Shown piece by piece: positions 19,286 through 36,975 of a stretch of DNA of 64,000 nucleotides (its first letter is position 1; the number at the start of each line of letters is the position of its first letter). A program made the translations under genes and the position numbers. Below the pieces are notes generated by a model. It searched no databases, had not been told where the DNA came from, and saw only the letters and a list, made by a program, of their open reading frames with translations. Source of the DNA: a virus; the IMG/VR virus record IMGVR_UViG_3300007276_000043, positions 12,464 through 76,463 of that record; one strand, 5' to 3'.

Positions 19286-19501
19286 CTAAATAGTTCGTTT
19301 CCTTTGTTTTGCTAACTCTTTTCGGCGTCTTGCATCTGATCGTTTCTTGGCTTTTCTTTTTCTTTCCGAGGGCTTGATATAGTGGCGACGTTCTTTGGCC
19401 TCATCAATGATACCCAATTTCTTAACTTTTTTATTAAATCTTTTTATTACTCTCTCGATGTTTTCATTCTTTCGAGGTTTTACTTTATAATTACAAGCCA
19501 T
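19286..19501 (-). CDS. rpsU: Phage-encoded 30S ribosomal protein bS21
   Basis: 71 aa, very basic: V..RKNENIERVIKRFNKKVKKLGIIDEAKERRHYIKPSERKRK matches the S21 signature. Confidence 0.92.
   Translation of the reverse strand: MACNYKVKPRKNENIERVIKRFNKKVKKLGIIDEAKERRHYIKPSERKRKAKKRSDARRRKELAKQRKRTI
19287..19294 (-). promoter_or_regulatory. Putative late-promoter octamer ACTATTTA overlapping the bS21 stop; inverted copy at 19274-19281
   Basis: ACTATTTA-caaac-TAAATAGT palindrome. Confidence 0.6.
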
Positions 19502-29282: not shown

Positions 29283-32200
29283 CTATTTTAAAACAACATT
29301 AGCATATCCATCAATCTTATCTATATCAATGGTCATGTCTACAACATCTTTTAGTGATTCAAGGTGAGATACGAGCAATACAATCTTAAATTGTGTCTTT
29401 ACCATCTCTAACAAACGAACAAATCCTTCCATGTGCTCGGCATCCAATGCTGTTGCTGGTTCATCAAGCACAAAAAGGTTTCCAACTGGTAAGTTAGTAA
29501 TTGAAATCATACCAAGCCGTATAGCCATAGAAGCCAATGTTTTCTCAGCACCAGAAGCCATAGAAAGAGGTCTTGGGTCATATGCTGGGTGTTTGATAAA
29601 TATATCTAACTTGGAGTCTGTATTATCAAAAAAGACCTCGAAGTCAACAATATTAGCCAGAACTTTTCCTATTTCTTCATTAATAATTGGAAGACGATCT
29701 TTAATAATGTTGTATGAGATTCCATTAGCGTGCATACATCGCATAAACATTTCATAAGCAACCCACTTGTTTTCATAGCCCTTATACTCTTCAAGTTCTT
29801 TCTCGATGTTCTTTATGATTTGGGCGGTTGATCCCTGTTCAATAAGACATTCTTGCAACTGCTCATTACATTTAGTATGTACTTGTCGCAGTTGGGATAT
29901 CTTTGTTTCAAGTGCTTTCTTTTCTCTCGTAAGTGTTCCAAGGTTCTCAATGGCTTCTCTGTTTTCTTCATATTCCGCTTCCTGATTTCTTAAACTTTCT
30001 ATTTGATTCTTTAAAAGATTCAACTTGTCTTTATTAGACGATAGTTCCATAGATTTTATTTCATTTTGATTCTGTAATTGATCAATATCTTGAGAAAACT
30101 TATTGTGTCTCTCAATATTAGAAGTAATCTCTTCTGGATTTATAAAGTTTATTTTTTCTTGTATGTCTGAGACAAACTCTTGTAATTCCTCAATCATTTT
30201 GGTTGTGGGCATTATTTTAGTTGAAGCATCGTGAGCATCTTTTACAAACTGATTGCTTACACAATACTTGCAATTAGGATCATACTGGTGTTCGTCAAGA
30301 AGTTTAACTTTTGATTTTAGATTTTCTAATATTTTTGTTTGTTGATTTAATTTTAATGTTATTATTGACTTTCGTTCTTTATGAGTTTTACAAGTTTCAT
30401 TTAGAGAAACAAGTTGTTCATAATTCAAATCGTCAAGAACCATTTTATATTGTTCTACAAACTCTTCATTATTTAATATTTCTTTTTGAAGGTCGATGTT
30501 TTCATGTAAAATTCTCTTAACACCTTCTTCTTTAGAAACAATATCGGCCTTAACTTTATCAATATCAATTATCTCCGCTGGTATTGAAGATATAATATCT
30601 TCTACTTCTTTTAATTTGCCGGTAAAAGATTCAACTGATTTTGTTGTCTTCTGACATTCTTTTTTCTTATTCTCAATTGCTTCAACTATTTCTTCTAAAA
30701 GTTCTTGGTTTTTGGTTATATCTTCAAGATAATTCTTTGCTTCAAACTTCTTAATTAAAGTTTTAATATCAGCGGAGTCCTTTTTGGCTAATTTAAACTT
30801 CTGATCGAAGATATCCAAGTCAAGGAATTTAGCAATAATCTCTTTCCTCTTCGTCGAACCTTCTTTGATAAACGACAGGGAGTCAAGCTGTGAGGCCATA
30901 GAGGTTAGTAGAAAGTCGTCAATCGTACCAAACTTCCTTCTGATATTAGCATCGGTCTCGTTGCGAGTGGTTCCGTTTAAACTCTCTTCAACTCCACCAA
31001 TTTCTTTTGTAAAATCAAGATCAACCTTTGCTTCAATTGTTTCCTTGCCTTTTAGTTTTCTTGTATACTTGTTCAAATTGCGAGCAATCTTGTATGTCGC
31101 ATTATCTGATTCTATTTCAAGAAGAATTTTGGCATCTTGTTTGTTCTGGTTGATTATGTGGACATTTTTTCTTTCATTTTTAGAAGTTGTATTATACATT
31201 CCGTATAAAACACTATCAATAATAGAAGATTTACCGGAGTAGTTCTTACCAAAAATACCCACGATACCATTAAGTCGATCAAAGTTGATAGTGTTCTTTT
31301 CGCCATAGTTAAAAAGATTGTCCCAAGTCGCACTCTTAAGTTTCCAAATAACATTTCTTGTTATCTCCTCGTTTTCTTCAACGGTTTGATTATATTTTCT
31401 GTTTAATTCCAATACCTTATCCATGATTCCATCATCGAGTTCCATATCTTTAAGGTATTTTCTAATATATTTCTCTTGTACTGTGATATCTCGGAGGTTT
31501 TCTTTCTTTAAAGCATCGGAAAGGTTTGTCTTTTCGTTACCTTTGTAGCTCGTCTTGACACTAAATGAGACACTTATTGGTCGCCACTTAACCTTGGCAA
31601 AATCCATCGCTCTTTTCATTTTAATTGGAGGTATAAGATTAGAACCAATTAAACGCAAGCGACAACCAATAGGAACATCAACTTTGGGCAATTGTCCTGT
31701 CTTAGTTAACACAACGTTAACAAACGGACGAGGGTTGTTAAGCTTATGAAATTTAACCTTAAAATCTGTTTTGTCGTTAATGTGCCACATTAAGTAGCCT
31801 TTATCAACATCCTCTCCAAAGTTCTGCTGAACAGTGGAGCCGCAATATGCTATTGTGCCTGTCTTATTAAGGAACTGCTTCTTATGTATATCTCCGAGCA
31901 TAGCATAATCAAAATTCTTGAATATATCCGAATCATGCTCTCCAAACTCCATGGTATAGCCTAAATCGGTTTGACAATTTGAGATTGCTCCATGGTATAG
32001 GGCGACATTAATCTTGCTATCATCGGTGGGCTGTGTCCAATTTTCTTCGTCAAACACTGAAAGGACATTAAATACTATCTTATCATCGAGTGAAAATTCA
32101 CCGGCATCTTTGAGAAAATGAAGATTAGGGTGCTTTAGTGCTGCGACGATTGGACCAATAGCATCTTCGCGATTAGCATTTTTAAGGTTACCATCGTGGT

Positions 32201-32450
32201 TACCTGCTATAATAATAGTGGGTGCTACATTCGCAAGGTTACTTAAAAACTCTGTTGCAAGAGAAAAATACTCTGGTGATAGTTGTGTCTTTGTGTGAGC
32301 CAAGTCGCCACAATGAACAATATAATCTGGTTGAGATTCTTTCAACTGCTTATAAAGATCAGCAAAGGCTTCACGATATTCAAAATGGTATTTTAAATTA
32401 CGGATATGAGTATCGGCTATATGAGCCAATTTAATTGTCTTGTTATTCAT
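29283..32450 (-). CDS. Fused Mre11/SbcD nuclease + Rad50/SbcC ATPase (gp47-gp46 fusion)
   Basis: Phosphoesterase motifs DTH, GD, GNHD, HG, GDIH; Walker A GKNYSGKSS; Zn hook CKYC; signature SGAEK; Walker B VLDEP; H-loop VSH, all in one 1055-aa ORF. Confidence 0.93.
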   Translation of the reverse strand: MNNKTIKLAHIADTHIRNLKYHFEYREAFADLYKQLKESQPDYIVHCGDLAHTKTQLSPEYFSLATEFLSNLANVAPTIIIAGNHDGNLKNANREDAIGPIVAALKHPNLHFLKDAGEFSLDDKIVFNVLSVFDEENWTQPTDDSKINVALYHGAISNCQTDLGYTMEFGEHDSDIFKNFDYAMLGDIHKKQFLNKTGTIAYCGSTVQQNFGEDVDKGYLMWHINDKTDFKVKFHKLNNPRPFVNVVLTKTGQLPKVDVPIGCRLRLIGSNLIPPIKMKRAMDFAKVKWRPISVSFSVKTSYKGNEKTNLSDALKKENLRDITVQEKYIRKYLKDMELDDGIMDKVLELNRKYNQTVEENEEITRNVIWKLKSATWDNLFNYGEKNTINFDRLNGIVGIFGKNYSGKSSIIDSVLYGMYNTTSKNERKNVHIINQNKQDAKILLEIESDNATYKIARNLNKYTRKLKGKETIEAKVDLDFTKEIGGVEESLNGTTRNETDANIRRKFGTIDDFLLTSMASQLDSLSFIKEGSTKRKEIIAKFLDLDIFDQKFKLAKKDSADIKTLIKKFEAKNYLEDITKNQELLEEIVEAIENKKKECQKTTKSVESFTGKLKEVEDIISSIPAEIIDIDKVKADIVSKEEGVKRILHENIDLQKEILNNEEFVEQYKMVLDDLNYEQLVSLNETCKTHKERKSIITLKLNQQTKILENLKSKVKLLDEHQYDPNCKYCVSNQFVKDAHDASTKIMPTTKMIEELQEFVSDIQEKINFINPEEITSNIERHNKFSQDIDQLQNQNEIKSMELSSNKDKLNLLKNQIESLRNQEAEYEENREAIENLGTLTREKKALETKISQLRQVHTKCNEQLQECLIEQGSTAQIIKNIEKELEEYKGYENKWVAYEMFMRCMHANGISYNIIKDRLPIINEEIGKVLANIVDFEVFFDNTDSKLDIFIKHPAYDPRPLSMASGAEKTLASMAIRLGMISITNLPVGNLFVLDEPATALDAEHMEGFVRLLEMVKTQFKIVLLVSHLESLKDVVDMTIDIDKIDGYANVVLK

Positions 32451-32458
32451 TGAAGTTC

Positions 32459-33910
32459 CTATTGTTCAGGTTTCAGTTTTTTTATCAAGTCGTTTGCTGT
32501 CTTTTTATATTCCTCTATGTCCGTCCAACCTTGTTCTGGGAACATAATATTATTTGGAGCATAGTTTACCAATGGGATTGAGAATCCCGTGTATCGATGT
32601 TTAGTAAACATAACCTTAGAGAACTCGCCTGTCAAGATTAAATTAATAATTTTTCTTGTTATCTCTAGAGAAATTCTTTTTCCTTTTCCGTAACCACCAC
32701 CAGTCCAACCAGTATTAACAAGCCAGCAGTTAATATTGTGTTCTTCTATTTTGTTCTTCAGTAAGTTAGCATATGTATCAACCTTTAAAGGCATAAATGG
32801 TTGTCCGAAACAGGCTGAGAAGGTTGGGACAGGCTCTTTAACACCTTTCTCAGTTCCAGCAACTTTAGCAGTATATCCAAGTTTAAATTGCTGAACTGCT
32901 TCTTCTGTGGATAATTTCATCACTGGCGGTAGAACTCCGAAAGCATCACAAGTCAACATAACAATGTTTTTAGGGTGCTTATTAACATAGCCCATTATAT
33001 GGGAATTGGGCACCACATCCGTTGAATAAGAGGCTCTACCGTTCTCTGTGATGGACCCATCATCAAAGTCGGGCTTACCGTCTTTCATTACAACATTTTC
33101 CAATATCGTTCCTACCGACTTACAAGCATTCCAGATCTCTGGTTCTCCTGTTTCTGAAAGGCGAATGGTTTTAGCGTAACAGCCGCCTTCGATATTTGTA
33201 AGACCATTATCTGTCCAAAGGTGTTCATCATCGCCAATTAAGACTCTATTGGGGTCAGCAGATAGGGTTGTTTTACCTGTGCCTGATAATCCAAAGAAAA
33301 TAGTTGGATTTTCATTGCCCTTATCAACGTTCACAGAACAATGCATTGGTAGAAAGCCTTTACTCGGTGTTAAAAAATTGATAAGAGTAAAAGCCGCTTT
33401 CTTGATTTCACCAGCATAATAAGTTCCAGAAATAAGAATTAACTTTTCTGATACTGAAATCATTACCCTTGGTTCGTCTAAAAGTGACGGCAAGTGTAAA
33501 ATAGTATATATATCAGTGACTTCCGGCGAATCTATAACTTGTTCTTTTGTGATAAACATATTCCTAACAAACTGTGAGTGTCTCGCATATTCCGTATATA
33601 CACGGAATCCAATTGCATGCTCAGGGTCTCTTATTAGAAGAGCGTCTTGTAAGTAAACTTCTTTATCTTTGACTGTGTTTAAGAACTTTCTCTTCATTTT
33701 ATTAAAAGCACCTTTGGTCATTTTTTGATTCTCGGACCAATCTACTTTTGTTTTTGTTTGCTTCTCATTAACAATATACTTTGCTGTTGGGCAGCGACCA
33801 GTATATTCACCAGTATAAGTGACGAGTGCTCCGTCTTCCGTTAAAGAACAACCTTCTTTTTCTATGGCGATCTCTAACAGTTTCGGTGTTTCTAAATTTT
33901 TATAAATCAT
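32459..33910 (-). CDS. pckA: Phosphoenolpyruvate carboxykinase (ATP)
   Basis: TGR.P..KYIV, YAGEIKK, PMHCS, FFGLSGTGKTTLSAD, LIGDDEH, N.EGGCYAK, LENV, TEN.RASY, DAFGVLPP, GYTAKVAGTE, FSACFG.PF, WLVNTGW. Confidence 0.96.
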   Translation of the reverse strand: MIYKNLETPKLLEIAIEKEGCSLTEDGALVTYTGEYTGRCPTAKYIVNEKQTKTKVDWSENQKMTKGAFNKMKRKFLNTVKDKEVYLQDALLIRDPEHAIGFRVYTEYARHSQFVRNMFITKEQVIDSPEVTDIYTILHLPSLLDEPRVMISVSEKLILISGTYYAGEIKKAAFTLINFLTPSKGFLPMHCSVNVDKGNENPTIFFGLSGTGKTTLSADPNRVLIGDDEHLWTDNGLTNIEGGCYAKTIRLSETGEPEIWNACKSVGTILENVVMKDGKPDFDDGSITENGRASYSTDVVPNSHIMGYVNKHPKNIVMLTCDAFGVLPPVMKLSTEEAVQQFKLGYTAKVAGTEKGVKEPVPTFSACFGQPFMPLKVDTYANLLKNKIEEHNINCWLVNTGWTGGGYGKGKRISLEITRKIINLILTGEFSKVMFTKHRYTGFSIPLVNYAPNNIMFPEQGWTDIEEYKKTANDLIKKLKPEQ

Positions 33911-34845
33911 AAATTCCTCAAAGCATTAATTAGAAAAAAATTGTCGTAATCTACCGACTTTGCTTGGTTTTTTCTCTCAATAAAAACGTCATGAGACATA
34001 GAACCAACGTCCTCACAACCAGAGGTATCTATTTCAAGCAACTCGATATCATATTGTAGCATATTTTTAACGATTTGTCCAGTCTTTTTTTTCGCGTCTT
34101 CGTCTAAAGCCAAGTAAACTGGTGTATCATTTATCGCAATTGCTTGAAATAGTTTGGTGTTTTCTCGGAGAGTTGAGCCGAGAATAGGAATAGCGTTTTC
34201 CCCAGCCACTATGGCGTCAAAAACTCCTTCTACGAGGATCACCGGACTATCCCAGTCTACAGAAAGTTGATTGAATATTATGTCCTTCTCGGCTGTTGGA
34301 TTGAGATACTTTCTCTGGTGACCAACATACGATCTCGCAATAAAATAATTAACATTTCCGTCGTTGTTAAAAGACGGTATAATTACTCTGCCGCCGAAAC
34401 GACCATCGTCACAATAACCAATCTTCCATTTCAATATTTGTTCTCTGGTTATTCCTCTCAATTGAAGATAGTTGAGAACTCTTTTGGAGGAGTAGGGCAG
34501 GTGCTTGTTACAAAGAGAGATAAATTTCTCTGGTAGTTCAATTACTTGCTCTTCTTCTACATCATTCATTTCTGCGAAGATATTCTCAAATTCGTTTAAA
34601 TCAAGACGACCTTCAAGTTCAAGCCACTTCTGTCGTTGTTGGTATGTTCCAAATTTACGAACAAGACGATAAATGTTCTTGCCGCTAGCAGAACATACCC
34701 AACATTTATAGCAACCTTTCGCAAAATTAACGGACATTTTCTTTTTGTGGTGATTACAAACTGGGCAAGAAAAAATAAACTCGTCTCTAGACTTTCTATA
34801 AGATCCAAGTATATTACAAATAATCTTCTTTTTTTGCTCAAACAT
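33907..34845 (-). CDS. DNA primase (Zn finger + TOPRIM)
   Basis: CPVC.H...CWVC; YL..RGI; RVIIP; LVEGVFDA; ALDEDA. Confidence 0.9.
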   Translation of the reverse strand: MFEQKKKIICNILGSYRKSRDEFIFSCPVCNHHKKKMSVNFAKGCYKCWVCSASGKNIYRLVRKFGTYQQRQKWLELEGRLDLNEFENIFAEMNDVEEEQVIELPEKFISLCNKHLPYSSKRVLNYLQLRGITREQILKWKIGYCDDGRFGGRVIIPSFNNDGNVNYFIARSYVGHQRKYLNPTAEKDIIFNQLSVDWDSPVILVEGVFDAIVAGENAIPILGSTLRENTKLFQAIAINDTPVYLALDEDAKKKTGQIVKNMLQYDIELLEIDTSGCEDVGSMSHDVFIERKNQAKSVDYDNFFLINALRNL

Positions 34846-34863: not shown

Positions 34864-34891
34864 AACATAACATATTATATTATTTTGTCAA
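34864..34891 (-). promoter_or_regulatory. sigma70-type promoter for primase-pckA-sbcDC
   Basis: TTGACA-N16-TATGTT with TG extension; GAGGTG SD follows. Confidence 0.7.
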
Positions 34892-35502
34892 GAAGAAACG
34901 ATTATTCTCATAAAGTCATCATACATTGCTGGTAGTGGGAGGGCTTTTTCTACCTCTTCTTTATTTCCATCAGCAATAGCATTTCTTAAGTTTGTGGCTG
35001 ATATTTCATCGGCATTAACTGTAATTGGGGGTAAATCTGTCTGGGCATTGTTATAGTCTTTTGTTATCTTTGCGAACTTCTCTCCACGACCAGCATCTTT
35101 TGATGAGTGACCAAGAGCAAACACCTTGCCTTGAAATAAAGCAGGGTCGGCGTCCTTTACAAAATCAATAGCATCGGCAAATGGATTTTCATACTCTTTG
35201 CCTTTGCTTGAGATTCTTGAAGACGATCTAATCAACTCAACCTTGGGATCTTTGGTAACTCCGTAAAGATCAAATATTTTAAGAGTTTTATCAACATCAA
35301 AAGACATCGTTCCGTCGTCACTTTGTCTCGGAGCAGAACCAACAAACACAAATACCTTCTCGACATCGGGGTGTTCGGCATATTTTCTGATCATTTGAAG
35401 GTGACCTTTATGTGGAGGTTTATACCCACCGGGCAAAAGAATAATATATTTATCTTTTTCTTCGGTTAAGAATCTTCTCCAATTTTCAAACAGTCTTCTC
35501 AT
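34888..35502 (-). CDS. HxGH nucleotidyltransferase (cytidylyltransferase-like)
   Basis: PGGYKPPHKGH and ISATNLR motifs; N-terminal LFENWRRFLTE tag. Confidence 0.85.
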   Translation of the reverse strand: MRRLFENWRRFLTEEKDKYIILLPGGYKPPHKGHLQMIRKYAEHPDVEKVFVFVGSAPRQSDDGTMSFDVDKTLKIFDLYGVTKDPKVELIRSSSRISSKGKEYENPFADAIDFVKDADPALFQGKVFALGHSSKDAGRGEKFAKITKDYNNAQTDLPPITVNADEISATNLRNAIADGNKEEVEKALPLPAMYDDFMRIIVSS

Positions 35503-36386: not shown

Positions 36387-36394
36387 TAATTAGT
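36387..36394 (-). promoter_or_regulatory. Putative late-promoter octamer ACTAATTA
   Basis: Upstream of the 173-aa tagged gene. Confidence 0.6.
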
Positions 36395-36939
36395 TATGAA
36401 TTTAGGATTATTCCTGCTAAAGCAACAACAACAGCATCGGCTTTATCGTCTGTTCCCGGCTTGGGATTTCCATATCTCGTAAGTTCATAATTAAAATCTT
36501 CTGGATATTCATTTTTAACCCACTCTATAACTTTCTTTTTTGTGTCTTCGCCTCTTTTGATCTTGAGACCAACGGCTCCTCTTGCTTTGTTTGCGGCGAT
36601 CAACTCGGCATCAAAACCAAATTGCTTCCTTACCATAAAAGAGATCATACCATTAAATCGCTGAAGTTTGCTCATCGTCATAGCGGTTGTTTTTCCACCG
36701 GAGAACATCATAAACGGAGACTCAATGTAAACTTTAGTGATATTGAATCTGTTCTTCTTGTTGATGTAATTATATGCATTAAGAGAAGAGAGGGTGTGTT
36801 CAACGACCAAGCACCTATCTTCCAATGAGGTTTTGTTATCTAATTTTATTGTTTCAGATTTTACGAGGTTTTTGTTAGTATCAAGTATAGATAACCCTAA
36901 TTTACTTGTGCTAACATCCAAGCCTAAAATATAATTCAT
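36394..36939 (-). CDS. RuvC-like Holliday junction resolvase
   Basis: ILGLDVST..LG, VYIE, DDKADAVVVA; start revised to ATG 36939 because the ORF-track TTG is the -35 box. Confidence 0.85.
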   Translation of the reverse strand: MNYILGLDVSTSKLGLSILDTNKNLVKSETIKLDNKTSLEDRCLVVEHTLSSLNAYNYINKKNRFNITKVYIESPFMMFSGGKTTAMTMSKLQRFNGMISFMVRKQFGFDAELIAANKARGAVGLKIKRGEDTKKKVIEWVKNEYPEDFNYELTRYGNPKPGTDDKADAVVVALAGIILNS

Positions 36940-36946
36940 AACATTT

Positions 36947-36975
36947 ATTATAACATTAAATTTATTAAATGTCAA
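36947..36975 (-). promoter_or_regulatory. Consensus sigma70 promoter giving a probably leaderless ruvC mRNA
   Basis: TTGACA-N17-TATAAT with TG extension; 7 nt between -10 and ATG; no SD. Confidence 0.88.

What the first reader, a model, noticed from the sequence alone, without database searches (positions are those of the whole stretch)
32459..33910. Intact ATP-dependent PEP carboxykinase embedded in a phage replication operon
Seen: all PEPCK(ATP) motifs are present (P-loop GLSGTGKT, GDDEH, HCS, YAGEIKK, EGGCYAK). The gene overlaps the primase stop (ATGA), ends 8 nt before the Mre11-Rad50 gene and sits under a sigma70 promoter, so it is an integrated phage gene rather than host contamination. 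It is compact (483 aa versus about 540 in E. coli) with changes TGRSP>TGRCP and TENTR>TENGR. Known: PckA performs the committed gluconeogenic step OAA->PEP. Inference: the phage pushes organic-acid/amino-acid carbon toward sugars and pentoses for dNTP synthesis or virion glycans, implying a host growing on gluconeogenic substrates. I do not know it as a common phage auxiliary metabolic gene.
Basis: partly seen in the sequence, partly recalled or inferred. Interest (0 to 1): 0.8.

Follow-up and report, generated by a model that had tools for sequence, protein, structure and literature searches.

The report
Virus-specific compact PEP carboxykinase in marine phage
A large marine phage carries an intact, shortened version of the enzyme that links the TCA cycle to sugar synthesis, and this shortened form belongs to a gene family found so far only on large ocean phages, which swap it among themselves.

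Summary
Window 32459-33910(-) encodes a 483-aa ATP-type PEP carboxykinase (Pfam 570 bits). All catalytic residues are present and the predicted fold matches solved PEPCKs (TM 0.9). It overlaps the primase stop (ATGA), ends 8 nt before a fused SbcD-SbcC gene, and sits behind a conserved sigma70-like promoter.

It is a real phage gene:
- The contig is a T4-related myovirus fragment; a complete relative is 185 kb.
- Three other viral contigs keep the same gene order.
- Independent metagenomes bridge the primase junction.
- Codon usage matches the phage, and dN/dS is 0.08-0.16.

New findings:
- The compact form (479-492 aa, lacking about 24 N- and 22 C-terminal residues) forms its own clade: 142 metagenomic and IMG/VR sequences.
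- No member turned up in about 880 cellular genomes compared in full, nor a core member in 400 more screened at a strict threshold.
- The clade spans at least two families of large phages, in different genomic positions, and PEPCK divergence does not track TerL divergence.
- In the window's own family it is rare cargo in a hypervariable primase/SbcCD slot.

Function is inferred: probably oxaloacetate to PEP during infection. Viral PEPCK already appears in bulk gene lists, so novelty is moderate.

The parts
34864..34891 (-). Sigma70-type promoter-like element (TTGACA, 16 nt, extended -10 TGtTATGTT) followed by a GAGGTG Shine-Dalgarno, upstream of primase. Probable start of the primase-PEPCK-SbcCD transcription unit.
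   Evidence: Scan match of 10/12 with a TG extension. Sequence read directly. A similar TTGACAA...TGtTAT(g/a)(a/t)T element precedes primase in many relatives.
33907..34845 (-). DnaG-type DNA primase (312 aa). Its stop codon overlaps the PEPCK start codon.
   Evidence: Pfam Zn_ribbon_DnaG and DNAG_N; PHROG 47 DNA primase at E 2e-41; ATGA overlap read.
32459..33910 (-). Compact ATP-dependent PEP carboxykinase (483 aa, P0001): the finding itself.
   Evidence: Pfam PF01293 at 570 bits. NCBIfam subfamily NF006821 passed; equivalog cut-offs not reached. Catalytic residues invariant. AlphaFold model pLDDT 87, TM 0.90-0.92 to 1J3B and 1AQ2. dN/dS 0.08-0.16.
32451..32458 (-). 8-nt spacer between the PEPCK stop (TAG) and the SbcCD start (ATG).
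   Evidence: Read directly.
29283..32450 (-). Fused SbcD(Mre11)-SbcC(Rad50) nuclease/ATPase (1055 aa). A conserved backbone gene of this phage family.
   Evidence: Pfam Metallophos, AAA_23 and SMC_N; PHROG 100 and 77; 355 related IMG/VR loci.

Best explanation
The gene encodes a catalytically competent, virus-adapted ATP-dependent PEP carboxykinase. It is accessory cargo (an auxiliary metabolic gene) of a marine T4-related myovirus of about 185 kb. It is probably transcribed with primase and SbcCD from a sigma70-type promoter, that is, with the replication genes and not the late virion genes, and it is translationally coupled to primase. It belongs to a compact PEPCK lineage (about 485 aa, both termini trimmed) found so far only on viral or unassigned contigs. 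That lineage circulates horizontally among at least two families of large marine phages and usually lands among replication and nucleotide-metabolism genes. Inferred mechanism: in an infected aerobic heterotroph it converts oxaloacetate plus ATP to PEP plus CO2. This withdraws C4 carbon from the TCA cycle, fed by amino and organic acids. The PEP then either goes up gluconeogenesis to pentose phosphates for nucleotides, or on to pyruvate for complete oxidation, using host enzymes for every other step. Shown here: enzyme identity, intact active site, phage ownership, purifying selection, clade structure and mobility. Inferred: expression timing, reaction direction and physiological pay-off.
For: Identity and integrity:
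- Pfam 570 bits.
- R39, Y165, K170, K171, H190, P-loop K213/T214, D227, D228, R292, R412 are invariant in all 280 aligned sequences.
- Model TM 0.90-0.92 to ATP-PEPCK structures, against about 0.75 for GTP-type enzymes.

Phage ownership:
- Sheath, major head protein, portal, TerL, prohead protease, gp19 and gp25 lie on the same contig.
- Primase-PEPCK-SbcCD order is kept in L002/L005, L003/L006 and G010.
- Contigs from other samples bridge the primase/PEPCK junction.
- GC and codon usage are typical of the phage.

Selection: dN/dS 0.08-0.16.

Distinct clade:
- 142-member clade with no GTDB genome row.
- One side of a branch under LG+C20, SH-aLRT 88.
- Best cellular identity is 48-49% and cellular reading frames are at least 515 aa.

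Mobility:
- PEPCK is absent from three complete relatives.
- It fills the primase/SbcCD slot in only 2 of about 56 informative relatives.
- Its dS is twice that of both flanks.
- PEPCK identity is uncoupled from TerL identity.

Context: in other lineages it sits next to DnaB, RNR, Pol III alpha, ThyA, DNA methylases and UvdE.

Possible expression: marine metatranscriptome contigs at 95-98% identity cover three parts of the gene.
Against: - No enzyme assay exists, and the reaction is reversible.
- The protein scores below the curated pckA equivalog cut-offs (494 vs 590 bits) and lacks both termini of the cellular enzymes, so altered kinetics, regulation or specificity cannot be excluded.
- No consistent partner enzyme is encoded: transaldolase in 1 of 5 genomes, and no PPDK/PPS, NeuB or PRPP synthase. 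Nothing in the genomes points to a direction.
- The host is unknown.
- RNA-library contigs may derive from DNA.
- 'Not found in cells' rests on sampled genomes. One clade member is deposited under a Pelagibacteraceae MAG name, and I could not retrieve that contig.
Confidence: 0.6

Rival explanations
1. Same enzyme, opposite direction. The phage PEPCK fixes CO2 onto PEP to give oxaloacetate plus ATP, as in Actinobacillus and Anaerobiospirillum. This would top up aspartate for pyrimidine and purine synthesis and yield substrate-level ATP during replication.
For: ATP-PEPCKs are reversible (established enzymology). The gene sits among replication and nucleotide-metabolism genes in several lineages, and aspartate is a direct nucleotide precursor. 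No gluconeogenic partner such as PPDK is encoded. The second-best sequence match among solved structures is the carboxylating A. succinogenes enzyme.
Against: From general knowledge: at seawater CO2 levels in aerobic heterotrophs the decarboxylating direction is usually favoured, and carboxylating PEPCKs are typical of CO2-rich anaerobic niches. No sequence signature of direction is known, so nothing here supports it positively.
Confidence: 0.22
2. The trimmed protein has drifted to another role. It could be a PEPCK-fold kinase or decarboxylase acting on a different substrate, or a regulator or decoy at the host PEP-oxaloacetate node, and not a bona fide PEPCK.
For: It scores below all curated equivalog cut-offs. 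About 24 N-terminal and 22 C-terminal residues are missing. It forms a deep, separate clade.
Against: Every residue known to bind oxaloacetate/PEP, Mn/Mg and ATP is invariant across the clade. The fold is complete at TM 0.9. It still passes Pfam by a wide margin and passes one NCBIfam PEPCK subfamily model.
Confidence: 0.08
3. Artefact: a cellular pckA gene joined to phage DNA by mis-assembly or binning, or a cellular contig mislabelled as viral.
For: Several 'phage' database records with pckA are clearly contaminated with host DNA, for example Staphylococcus, Salmonella and Escherichia records.
Against: The same gene order occurs in contigs from other samples. A 1,968-nt contig from another sample spans the PEPCK/primase junction with 0 mismatches. 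The gene overlaps the primase stop codon. Codon usage is typical of the phage. No cellular genome examined holds a close relative.
Confidence: 0.02

Closest known systems
Cellular ATP-dependent PEP carboxykinase PckA (EC 4.1.1.49; Pfam PF01293; structures T. thermophilus 1J3B, E. coli 1AQ2)
   Same: Same two-domain fold (TM 0.90-0.92), same P-loop, metal-binding and substrate-binding residues, and the ATP-type nucleotide pocket.
   Different: Only 36-49% identical. About 50 residues shorter through loss of both termini. Below the curated pckA equivalog cut-offs. A separate clade not nested in any sampled bacterial or archaeal group. Encoded by phages.
PEPCK genes reported in giant viruses (Mimiviridae MAGs; Moniruzzaman 2020 and Ha 2021 as summarised in PMC9270025)
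   Same: A virus-encoded gluconeogenic enzyme read as host metabolic reprogramming. Giant-virus MAG contigs also appeared in my IMG/VR scan.
   Different: Those are long-form enzymes (about 520-570 aa), about 42% identical, and they fall on the cellular side of the tree. Their hosts are eukaryotes.
PEPCK/pckA listed as a viral AMG in ANME-1 archaeal viruses (PMC9894754) and hadal-trench viromes (PMC12448302)
   Same: A prokaryotic virus carrying PEPCK, catalogued as a carbon-metabolism AMG.
   Different: In the passages I read these are list entries with no phylogeny, structure, synteny or clade analysis. They come from anoxic sediment or hydrothermal settings, not from surface-ocean myoviruses. 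Whether those genes belong to the compact clade was not tested.
Central-carbon AMGs of T4-like cyanophages (talC, cp12, zwf, gnd; from my own knowledge of Thompson et al. 2011)
   Same: A single host-like enzyme inserted into a T4-type genome, thought to push carbon toward pentose phosphates and nucleotides during infection. One PEPCK-bearing 284-kb phage also has a transaldolase.
   Different: It acts at the TCA/PEP node and not at the Calvin/PPP node. The hosts are presumably heterotrophs. Unlike talC, the gene is rare cargo in its own family.
Lambda cI repression of host pckA (PMC1151598, PMC6359870)
   Same: A phage manipulating the same metabolic step.
   Different: Opposite logic: a temperate phage shuts down the host gene through a repressor, whereas here a T4-type (presumably virulent) phage brings its own enzyme.

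Membership tests
ATP-dependent PEP carboxykinase (PckA, Pfam PF01293) | Score above the Pfam gathering threshold over the full domain | tested here: met
   570.2 bits against a cut-off of 26.5; profile positions 3-456 of 465.
ATP-dependent PEP carboxykinase (PckA, Pfam PF01293) | Score above the curated NCBIfam equivalog cut-offs (TIGR00224 pckA; NF006822; NF006823) | tested here: not met
   TIGR00224: 494.3 vs 590.05. NF006822: 580 vs 806. NF006823: 453 vs 815. Subfamily NF006820: 599 vs 636. Only subfamily NF006821 is passed, 403.5 vs 369. So it is a PEPCK-family member, but not a certified equivalog of cellular PckA.
ATP-dependent PEP carboxykinase (PckA, Pfam PF01293) | Kinase-1a P-loop (GLSGTGKT) and the kinase-2/metal site (GDDEH) | tested here: met
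   Residues 207-214 and 226-230. K213, T214, D227 and D228 are invariant in 280 sequences.
ATP-dependent PEP carboxykinase (PckA, Pfam PF01293) | PEPCK-specific residues: the Lys pair (YAGEIKK), the His of MHCS, and the substrate arginines (TGRxP, TENxR) | tested here: met
   Y165, K170, K171, H190, R39 and R292 are all invariant.
ATP-dependent PEP carboxykinase (PckA, Pfam PF01293) | Two-domain PEPCK fold with an ATP-type, not GTP-type, nucleotide domain | tested here: met
   Model pLDDT 87.4. Foldseek E 1e-58 to 1e-51 and TM 0.89-0.92 to ATP-PEPCKs, against E 1e-22 and TM 0.70-0.78 to GTP-PEPCKs.
ATP-dependent PEP carboxykinase (PckA, Pfam PF01293) | Full-length termini of the cellular enzymes (about 520-540 aa) | tested here: not met
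   483 aa. Cellular sequences have a median of 24 more N-terminal and 22 more C-terminal residues. NCBIfam profile positions 1-19 and 507-529 are unmatched.
ATP-dependent PEP carboxykinase (PckA, Pfam PF01293) | Catalysis of oxaloacetate + ATP <-> PEP + ADP + CO2 | not testable with these tools
   Needs an enzyme assay or genetic complementation.
Viral auxiliary metabolic gene (AMG) | Flanked on both sides by viral genes on one contig, and reproduced in independent assemblies | tested here: met
   Primase upstream and SbcCD downstream, with virion genes on the same contig. The same order in L002, L003 and G010. Bridging contigs in runs X4, X7 and X9.
Viral auxiliary metabolic gene (AMG) | Maintained by selection, yet dispensable for the core viral cycle | tested here: met
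   dN/dS 0.08-0.16. Absent from three CheckV-complete relatives and from the slot in most of the 80 related loci.
Viral auxiliary metabolic gene (AMG) | Expressed during infection | tested here: inconclusive
   Marine metatranscriptome contigs (run X15) cover 32665-32940, 32968-33155 and 33383-33533 at 95-98% identity. DNA carry-over cannot be excluded and contigs give no strand.
T4-related myoviruses (distant relatives of Straboviridae) | T4-type virion and packaging gene set | tested here: met
   Sheath, major head protein, portal and gp17-type TerL. Prohead protease S77, T4 baseplate, gp25 and gp19.
T4-related myoviruses (distant relatives of Straboviridae) | Close relationship to a cultured, classified phage | tested here: not met
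   Best cultured TerL match is 48% (Flavobacterium phage vB_FspM_immuto), then 42% (Microcystis phage Mel-JY01) and 34% (T4-like cyanophages). No nucleotide-level match.

The most novel reading that the evidence does not exclude
The compact, roughly 485-aa PEPCKs are a virus-exclusive enzyme lineage: a minimal PEPCK that branched off before, or evolved away from, all sampled cellular PckA. It is maintained and traded only within the gene pool of large marine T4-related and jumbo phages. This would mean many ocean phages directly control the oxaloacetate-PEP node of their heterotrophic hosts. It would also make this the smallest natural ATP-PEPCK scaffold.
Probability: 0.45. Interest if true: 0.65.

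Novelty: new variant of a known kind. Interest (0 to 1): 0.52.

Why it matters
Central-carbon AMGs are best understood in cyanophages, which act at the Calvin cycle and pentose-phosphate pathway. For phages of marine heterotrophs the picture is thin.

A PEPCK lineage that is conserved, mobile and so far seen only on viral contigs would mark the TCA-to-PEP step as a recurrent control point of the infected cell in the surface ocean. That step decides whether amino-acid and organic-acid carbon is respired, turned into sugars and nucleotides, or used to fix CO2. It therefore bears on how viral infection shapes carbon flow.

The trimmed enzyme is also a natural minimal PEPCK, which could be informative for enzymology.

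The claim is directly testable with one recombinant protein and an E. coli complementation assay.

The finding also gives a concrete case of a metabolic gene travelling between phage families through insertion hotspots that homing endonucleases also use.

Tried and rejected
I could not inspect the contigs of the nearest metagenomic proteins or the 60.7-kb 'Pelagibacteraceae TMED247' contig.
- A viral-contig scan with that protein (P0132) found only 55-59% relatives, so its status stays open.
- Nucleotide search of cultured phages: no match.
- PHROGs has no family for this protein.
- tblastn hits in the phage database are mostly host-contaminated records and were not used as evidence for phage PEPCK.
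- The genome search with 'of' set to a locus id is not accepted; I redid it through handles.
- Partner-enzyme fishing in five near-complete PEPCK-bearing genomes: transaldolase once; PEP-utilizers_C, NeuB and Pribosyltran_N never. This gives no clue to direction.
- No tRNA genes in the window, so no host clue.
- TATAAATA (T4 late promoter) is enriched in the window: 14 matches against 5.5 expected. Most matches are on the non-coding strand and none precedes primase or PEPCK. I did not use this to assign timing.
- The PEPCK/SbcCD junction was not bridged by any listed contig piece with at least 31 nt on both sides. Support for that junction comes from the IMG/VR contigs instead.
- The 50%-representative search collapses the compact clade into essentially one representative (P0143, 490 aa, 52%) and added little.
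- The Gammaproteobacteria control at E<=1e-150 excludes only core clade members. The positive control recovered 3 of 5 known viral members.
- Earlier scan notes found by keyword concern unrelated divergent PEPCK-like families and did not bear on this gene.
Full report
**1. The observation**

The ORF at 32459-33910 exists but is on the minus strand; the plus strand there is full of stops. It encodes 483 aa (P0001) and matches Pfam PEPCK_ATP at 570 bits over almost the whole profile. All quoted motifs are present.

Read on the minus strand:
- A GAGGA Shine-Dalgarno is followed by ATGA, where the primase stop overlaps the PEPCK start.
- PEPCK ends at TAG, and 8 nt later the next gene starts.
- That gene is a 1055-aa SbcD-SbcC (Mre11-Rad50) fusion.
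- Directly upstream of primase lie TTGACA, 16 nt, an extended -10 TGtTATGTT, and a GAGGTG Shine-Dalgarno.
- A very similar element precedes primase in many relatives down to about 50% protein identity, so it is probably a real promoter for primase-PEPCK-SbcCD.

**2. What the window is**

All long ORFs run on the minus strand. They include tail sheath, head-tail adaptor, major head protein, portal and TerL. Also present are prohead protease, T4 baseplate protein, gp25, gp19, two lectin-like fibre proteins and a ribosomal protein S21.

The source is an IMG/VR virus contig of 76,463 bp, estimated 42% complete. The closest cultured phages by TerL are Baltic Flavobacterium phage vB_FspM_immuto (48%), Microcystis phage Mel-JY01 (42%) and T4-like cyanophages (34%). 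There is no nucleotide-level match to any cultured phage. The closest complete relative that carries PEPCK is a 185-kb IMG/VR genome (G010, TerL 78%).

**3. Not an artefact**

- The order primase-PEPCK-SbcCD recurs in IMG/VR contigs from other samples: L002/L005 (PEPCK 79%, flanks 92-93%) and L003/L006 (64%, flanks 71-75%).
- G010 has primase-PEPCK followed by two small ORFs and then SbcCD. Its PEPCK is interrupted only by a 10-N scaffold gap.
- The locus occurs near-identically in marine, seawater and 'freshwater'-labelled metagenomes from about 14 studies between 2014 and 2024.
- Contigs from three runs that are not the possible source bridge the primase/PEPCK junction. One is 1,968 nt with 0 mismatches.
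- PEPCK has the contig's GC (37.4% vs 37.2%) and one of the most typical codon usages on the contig (cosine 0.951).

**4. The enzyme is intact and under selection**

- Residues R39, Y165, K170, K171, H190, K213, T214, D227, D228, R292 and R412 are invariant across 280 viral, metagenomic and cellular sequences.
- An AlphaFold model (pLDDT 87.4) superposes on T. thermophilus and E. coli ATP-PEPCKs at TM 0.89-0.92, far better than on GTP-type enzymes.
- The only disordered stretch is residues 348-358. I take this to be the mobile active-site lid; that assignment is from memory and was not checked here.
- dN/dS between the window and its relatives is 0.08-0.16.
Position 40 is C in 8 of 19 close relatives and is S or A elsewhere, including in cells. 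Position 291 is T, G, S, A or C.
- The protein passes Pfam and one NCBIfam PEPCK subfamily model. It scores below the curated pckA equivalog cut-offs (494 vs 590 bits) and lacks about the first 20 and last 25 profile positions.

**5. A compact clade seen only on viral or unassigned contigs**

- In a 5.8-billion-protein collection, the top 120 relatives (51-98% identity) are nearly all 475-496 aa; a few outliers range from 402 to 521 aa. Several sit on contigs of 139-309 kb.
- An IMG/VR scan found 114 viral PEPCK loci. Those at 49% identity or more are all 483-503 aa and align from residue 1.
- Even samples of 401 Bacteroidota and 401 Alphaproteobacteria gave at most 49% identity and reading frames of at least 515 aa, apart from one hit cut off at a contig end. 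One of the 401 alphaproteobacterial genomes, G660, is unpublished; no claim depends on it.
- Of 400 Gammaproteobacteria, none had a core-clade-level hit. The positive control recovered 3 of 5 known members.
- In a FastTree of 280 sequences, the window, all 120 metagenomic hits and 21 IMG/VR loci form one clade without any genome row (support 94). IMG/VR loci are scattered through every subclade.
- Under LG+C20 on 75 balanced rows, the 26 compact sequences are one side of a branch (SH-aLRT 88). All sampled bacterial, archaeal and long-form viral sequences are split off by a 99-supported branch.
- Eight long PEPCK-bearing contigs (145-284 kb, several near-complete by CheckV) each carry a gp17-type TerL.
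- Caveat: one clade member is deposited as 'Pelagibacteraceae bacterium TMED247' and another as '[bacterium]'. I could not fetch those contigs. The nearest IMG/VR locus (L009) has marine-myovirus-type neighbours: a 2OG-Fe(II) oxygenase, Hsp20, UvdE and DUF5824.

**6. Accessory and mobile**

The fused SbcCD marks a large phage family with 355 IMG/VR loci. Its backbone is conserved from several genes upstream of primase, through SbcCD, down to TerL. The primase/SbcCD slot is hypervariable:
- It is empty in many relatives, including L166, a complete 184-kb genome with SbcCD at 71%.
- In others it holds GIY-YIG/SegE homing endonucleases, an MvaI/BcnI-type endonuclease or ORFans.
- PEPCK fills it in only 2 of about 56 informative loci.

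Three complete relatives (184-192 kb) have no PEPCK anywhere. One metagenome contig joins 32423 to 33971 and skips the gene. This is consistent with such PEPCK-less relatives, though the sequence between the two ends is not known.

Between the window and L005, PEPCK has dS 1.59 while both flanks have 0.66-0.72. This points to exchange of the cassette.

Across phages, TerL defines at least two families. The window's family includes G010 (78%) and G004 (67%). A second family with 145-285-kb contigs is 44-51% identical to the window and 58-81% within itself. PEPCK identity does not follow TerL identity: G002-G009 have TerL 81% but PEPCK 53%, and window-G005 have TerL 50% but PEPCK 56%.

The insertion site differs between lineages but is usually among replication, repair or nucleotide genes: DnaB, class II RNR and a 5'-3' exonuclease; Pol III alpha and Dam; UvdE and DnaJ. 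In some it sits next to AdoHcy hydrolase, MgtC or a lysozyme.

**7. Function**

Established enzymology says the reaction is oxaloacetate + ATP <-> PEP + ADP + CO2. Nothing in the genomes fixes the direction. Five near-complete PEPCK-bearing phages encode no PPDK/PPS, NeuB or PRPP synthase, and only one has a transaldolase. The rest of this contig holds no other central-carbon enzyme.

I favour the decarboxylating direction (about 0.55-0.6), for three reasons:
- The phage population lives in oxic marine and brackish water.
- The gene is co-located, and probably co-expressed, with replication functions.
- The analogy with cyanophage AMGs that push carbon to pentose phosphates. This point is from my own knowledge.

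PEP could feed gluconeogenesis and nucleotide sugar supply. Alternatively, through host pyruvate kinase, it could allow complete oxidation of amino-acid carbon. The reverse direction (CO2-fixing, yielding ATP and aspartate) is a serious rival (about 0.2). A changed function is unlikely because the active site is invariant. Metatranscriptome contigs covering the gene are a weak hint of expression.

**8. Novelty**

- PEPCK has no PHROG family.
- The only cultured-phage hits are host-contaminated records, plus one 636-kb uncultured phage at 41%.
- Viral PEPCK is already listed for giant viruses (PMC9270025), ANME-1 viruses (PMC9894754) and trench viromes (PMC12448302).
- Phage lambda is known to repress the host gene.
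- I found no paper describing a phage PEPCK clade, its compaction or its mobility.

So the category, a central-carbon AMG, is known. The virus-associated compact lineage and its behaviour appear to be undescribed.

**Verdict:** a real and moderately interesting finding; a new variant of a known kind.

Noticed in passing
window 19286-19501 (-): A 71-aa, very basic ORF (42% K+R). It is most likely the phage-encoded ribosomal protein bS21 that Pfam detected on this contig (Ribosomal_S21, E 8e-14). I assigned the hit to this ORF by composition, not by a per-ORF scan.
   Followed up: partly
window 32451-33910 slot; relatives L165-L244: The gap between primase and SbcCD is a hypervariable insertion hotspot across a family of at least 355 IMG/VR loci. 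It is empty, or holds GIY-YIG/SegE homing endonucleases (L183, L191), an MvaI/BcnI-type restriction endonuclease (L180), ORFans of 280-560 aa, or PEPCK.
   Followed up: partly
L055, L061, L063-L084 (e.g. L078:5986-7467): A second, separate group of short viral PEPCKs (489-493 aa, 40-42% identical to this one, on a long branch with 100% support). It is always flanked by thymidylate synthase, an N4/N6 DNA methylase and a phage lysozyme, on contigs with 35-36% GC.
   Followed up: partly
window 32423 -> 33971 (run X7): One metagenome contig joins the start of SbcCD to the end of primase and skips 1,547 nt, the whole PEPCK gene. Most simply this is a co-occurring PEPCK-less relative, or one whose PEPCK falls below the 90% alignment threshold. 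The sequence between the two ends is not known.
   Followed up: partly
P0132 / P0027 cluster: A compact-clade PEPCK (489 aa, on a 60.7-kb contig) is deposited as 'Pelagibacteraceae bacterium TMED247'. Either a phage contig was binned into a SAR11 MAG, which would be a possible host hint, or this is a cellular member of the clade. I could not resolve it.
   Followed up: partly
phage database records MG543995.1, OR844996.1, AGRM01000003.1, AFYI01000003.1 and short OR85xxxx records: Records filed as phages carry ordinary Staphylococcus, Salmonella or E. coli-type pckA. Two of them are whole Salmonella contigs of more than 500 kb. This looks like host contamination in the collection and should not be counted as phage PEPCK.
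   Followed up: no
LR756504.1:555760-557196: A 636-kb uncultured 'huge phage' record encodes a PEPCK homologue (41% identity, 97% coverage). The record has no annotation.
   Followed up: no
L258:4320-4329 (G010, 185-kb complete relative): The PEPCK gene of the closest complete relative is split by a 10-N scaffold gap, with residues 103-128 duplicated on either side. Gene callers therefore report only a 343-aa fragment. This is an assembly artefact, not a pseudogene.
   Followed up: yes
L026:7358-8692, L010:4879-5547, L021:7474-8508, L008:9813-10667, L009:3113-3787: Other host-like cargo lies next to PEPCK in the larger phages: S-adenosylhomocysteine hydrolase (overlapping the PEPCK end), MgtC, a full DnaJ, a PLP-dependent (PALP) enzyme, a 2OG-Fe(II) oxygenase and Hsp20.
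   Followed up: no
window 36947-36975 (-): A perfect 12/12 sigma70 consensus (TTGACA, 17 nt, TATAAT, with a TG extension). It overlaps the start of the 193-aa ORF at 36394-36975. This is the strongest promoter-like site in the region.
   Followed up: no
window 34888-35502 (-): The gene just upstream of the primase promoter is a nucleotidyltransferase (Pfam CTP_transf_like) with weak NMN/NaMN-adenylyltransferase and FAD-synthase similarity. All scores are far below the curated cut-offs, so its substrate is unknown. It is 96% conserved in L005.
   Followed up: partly
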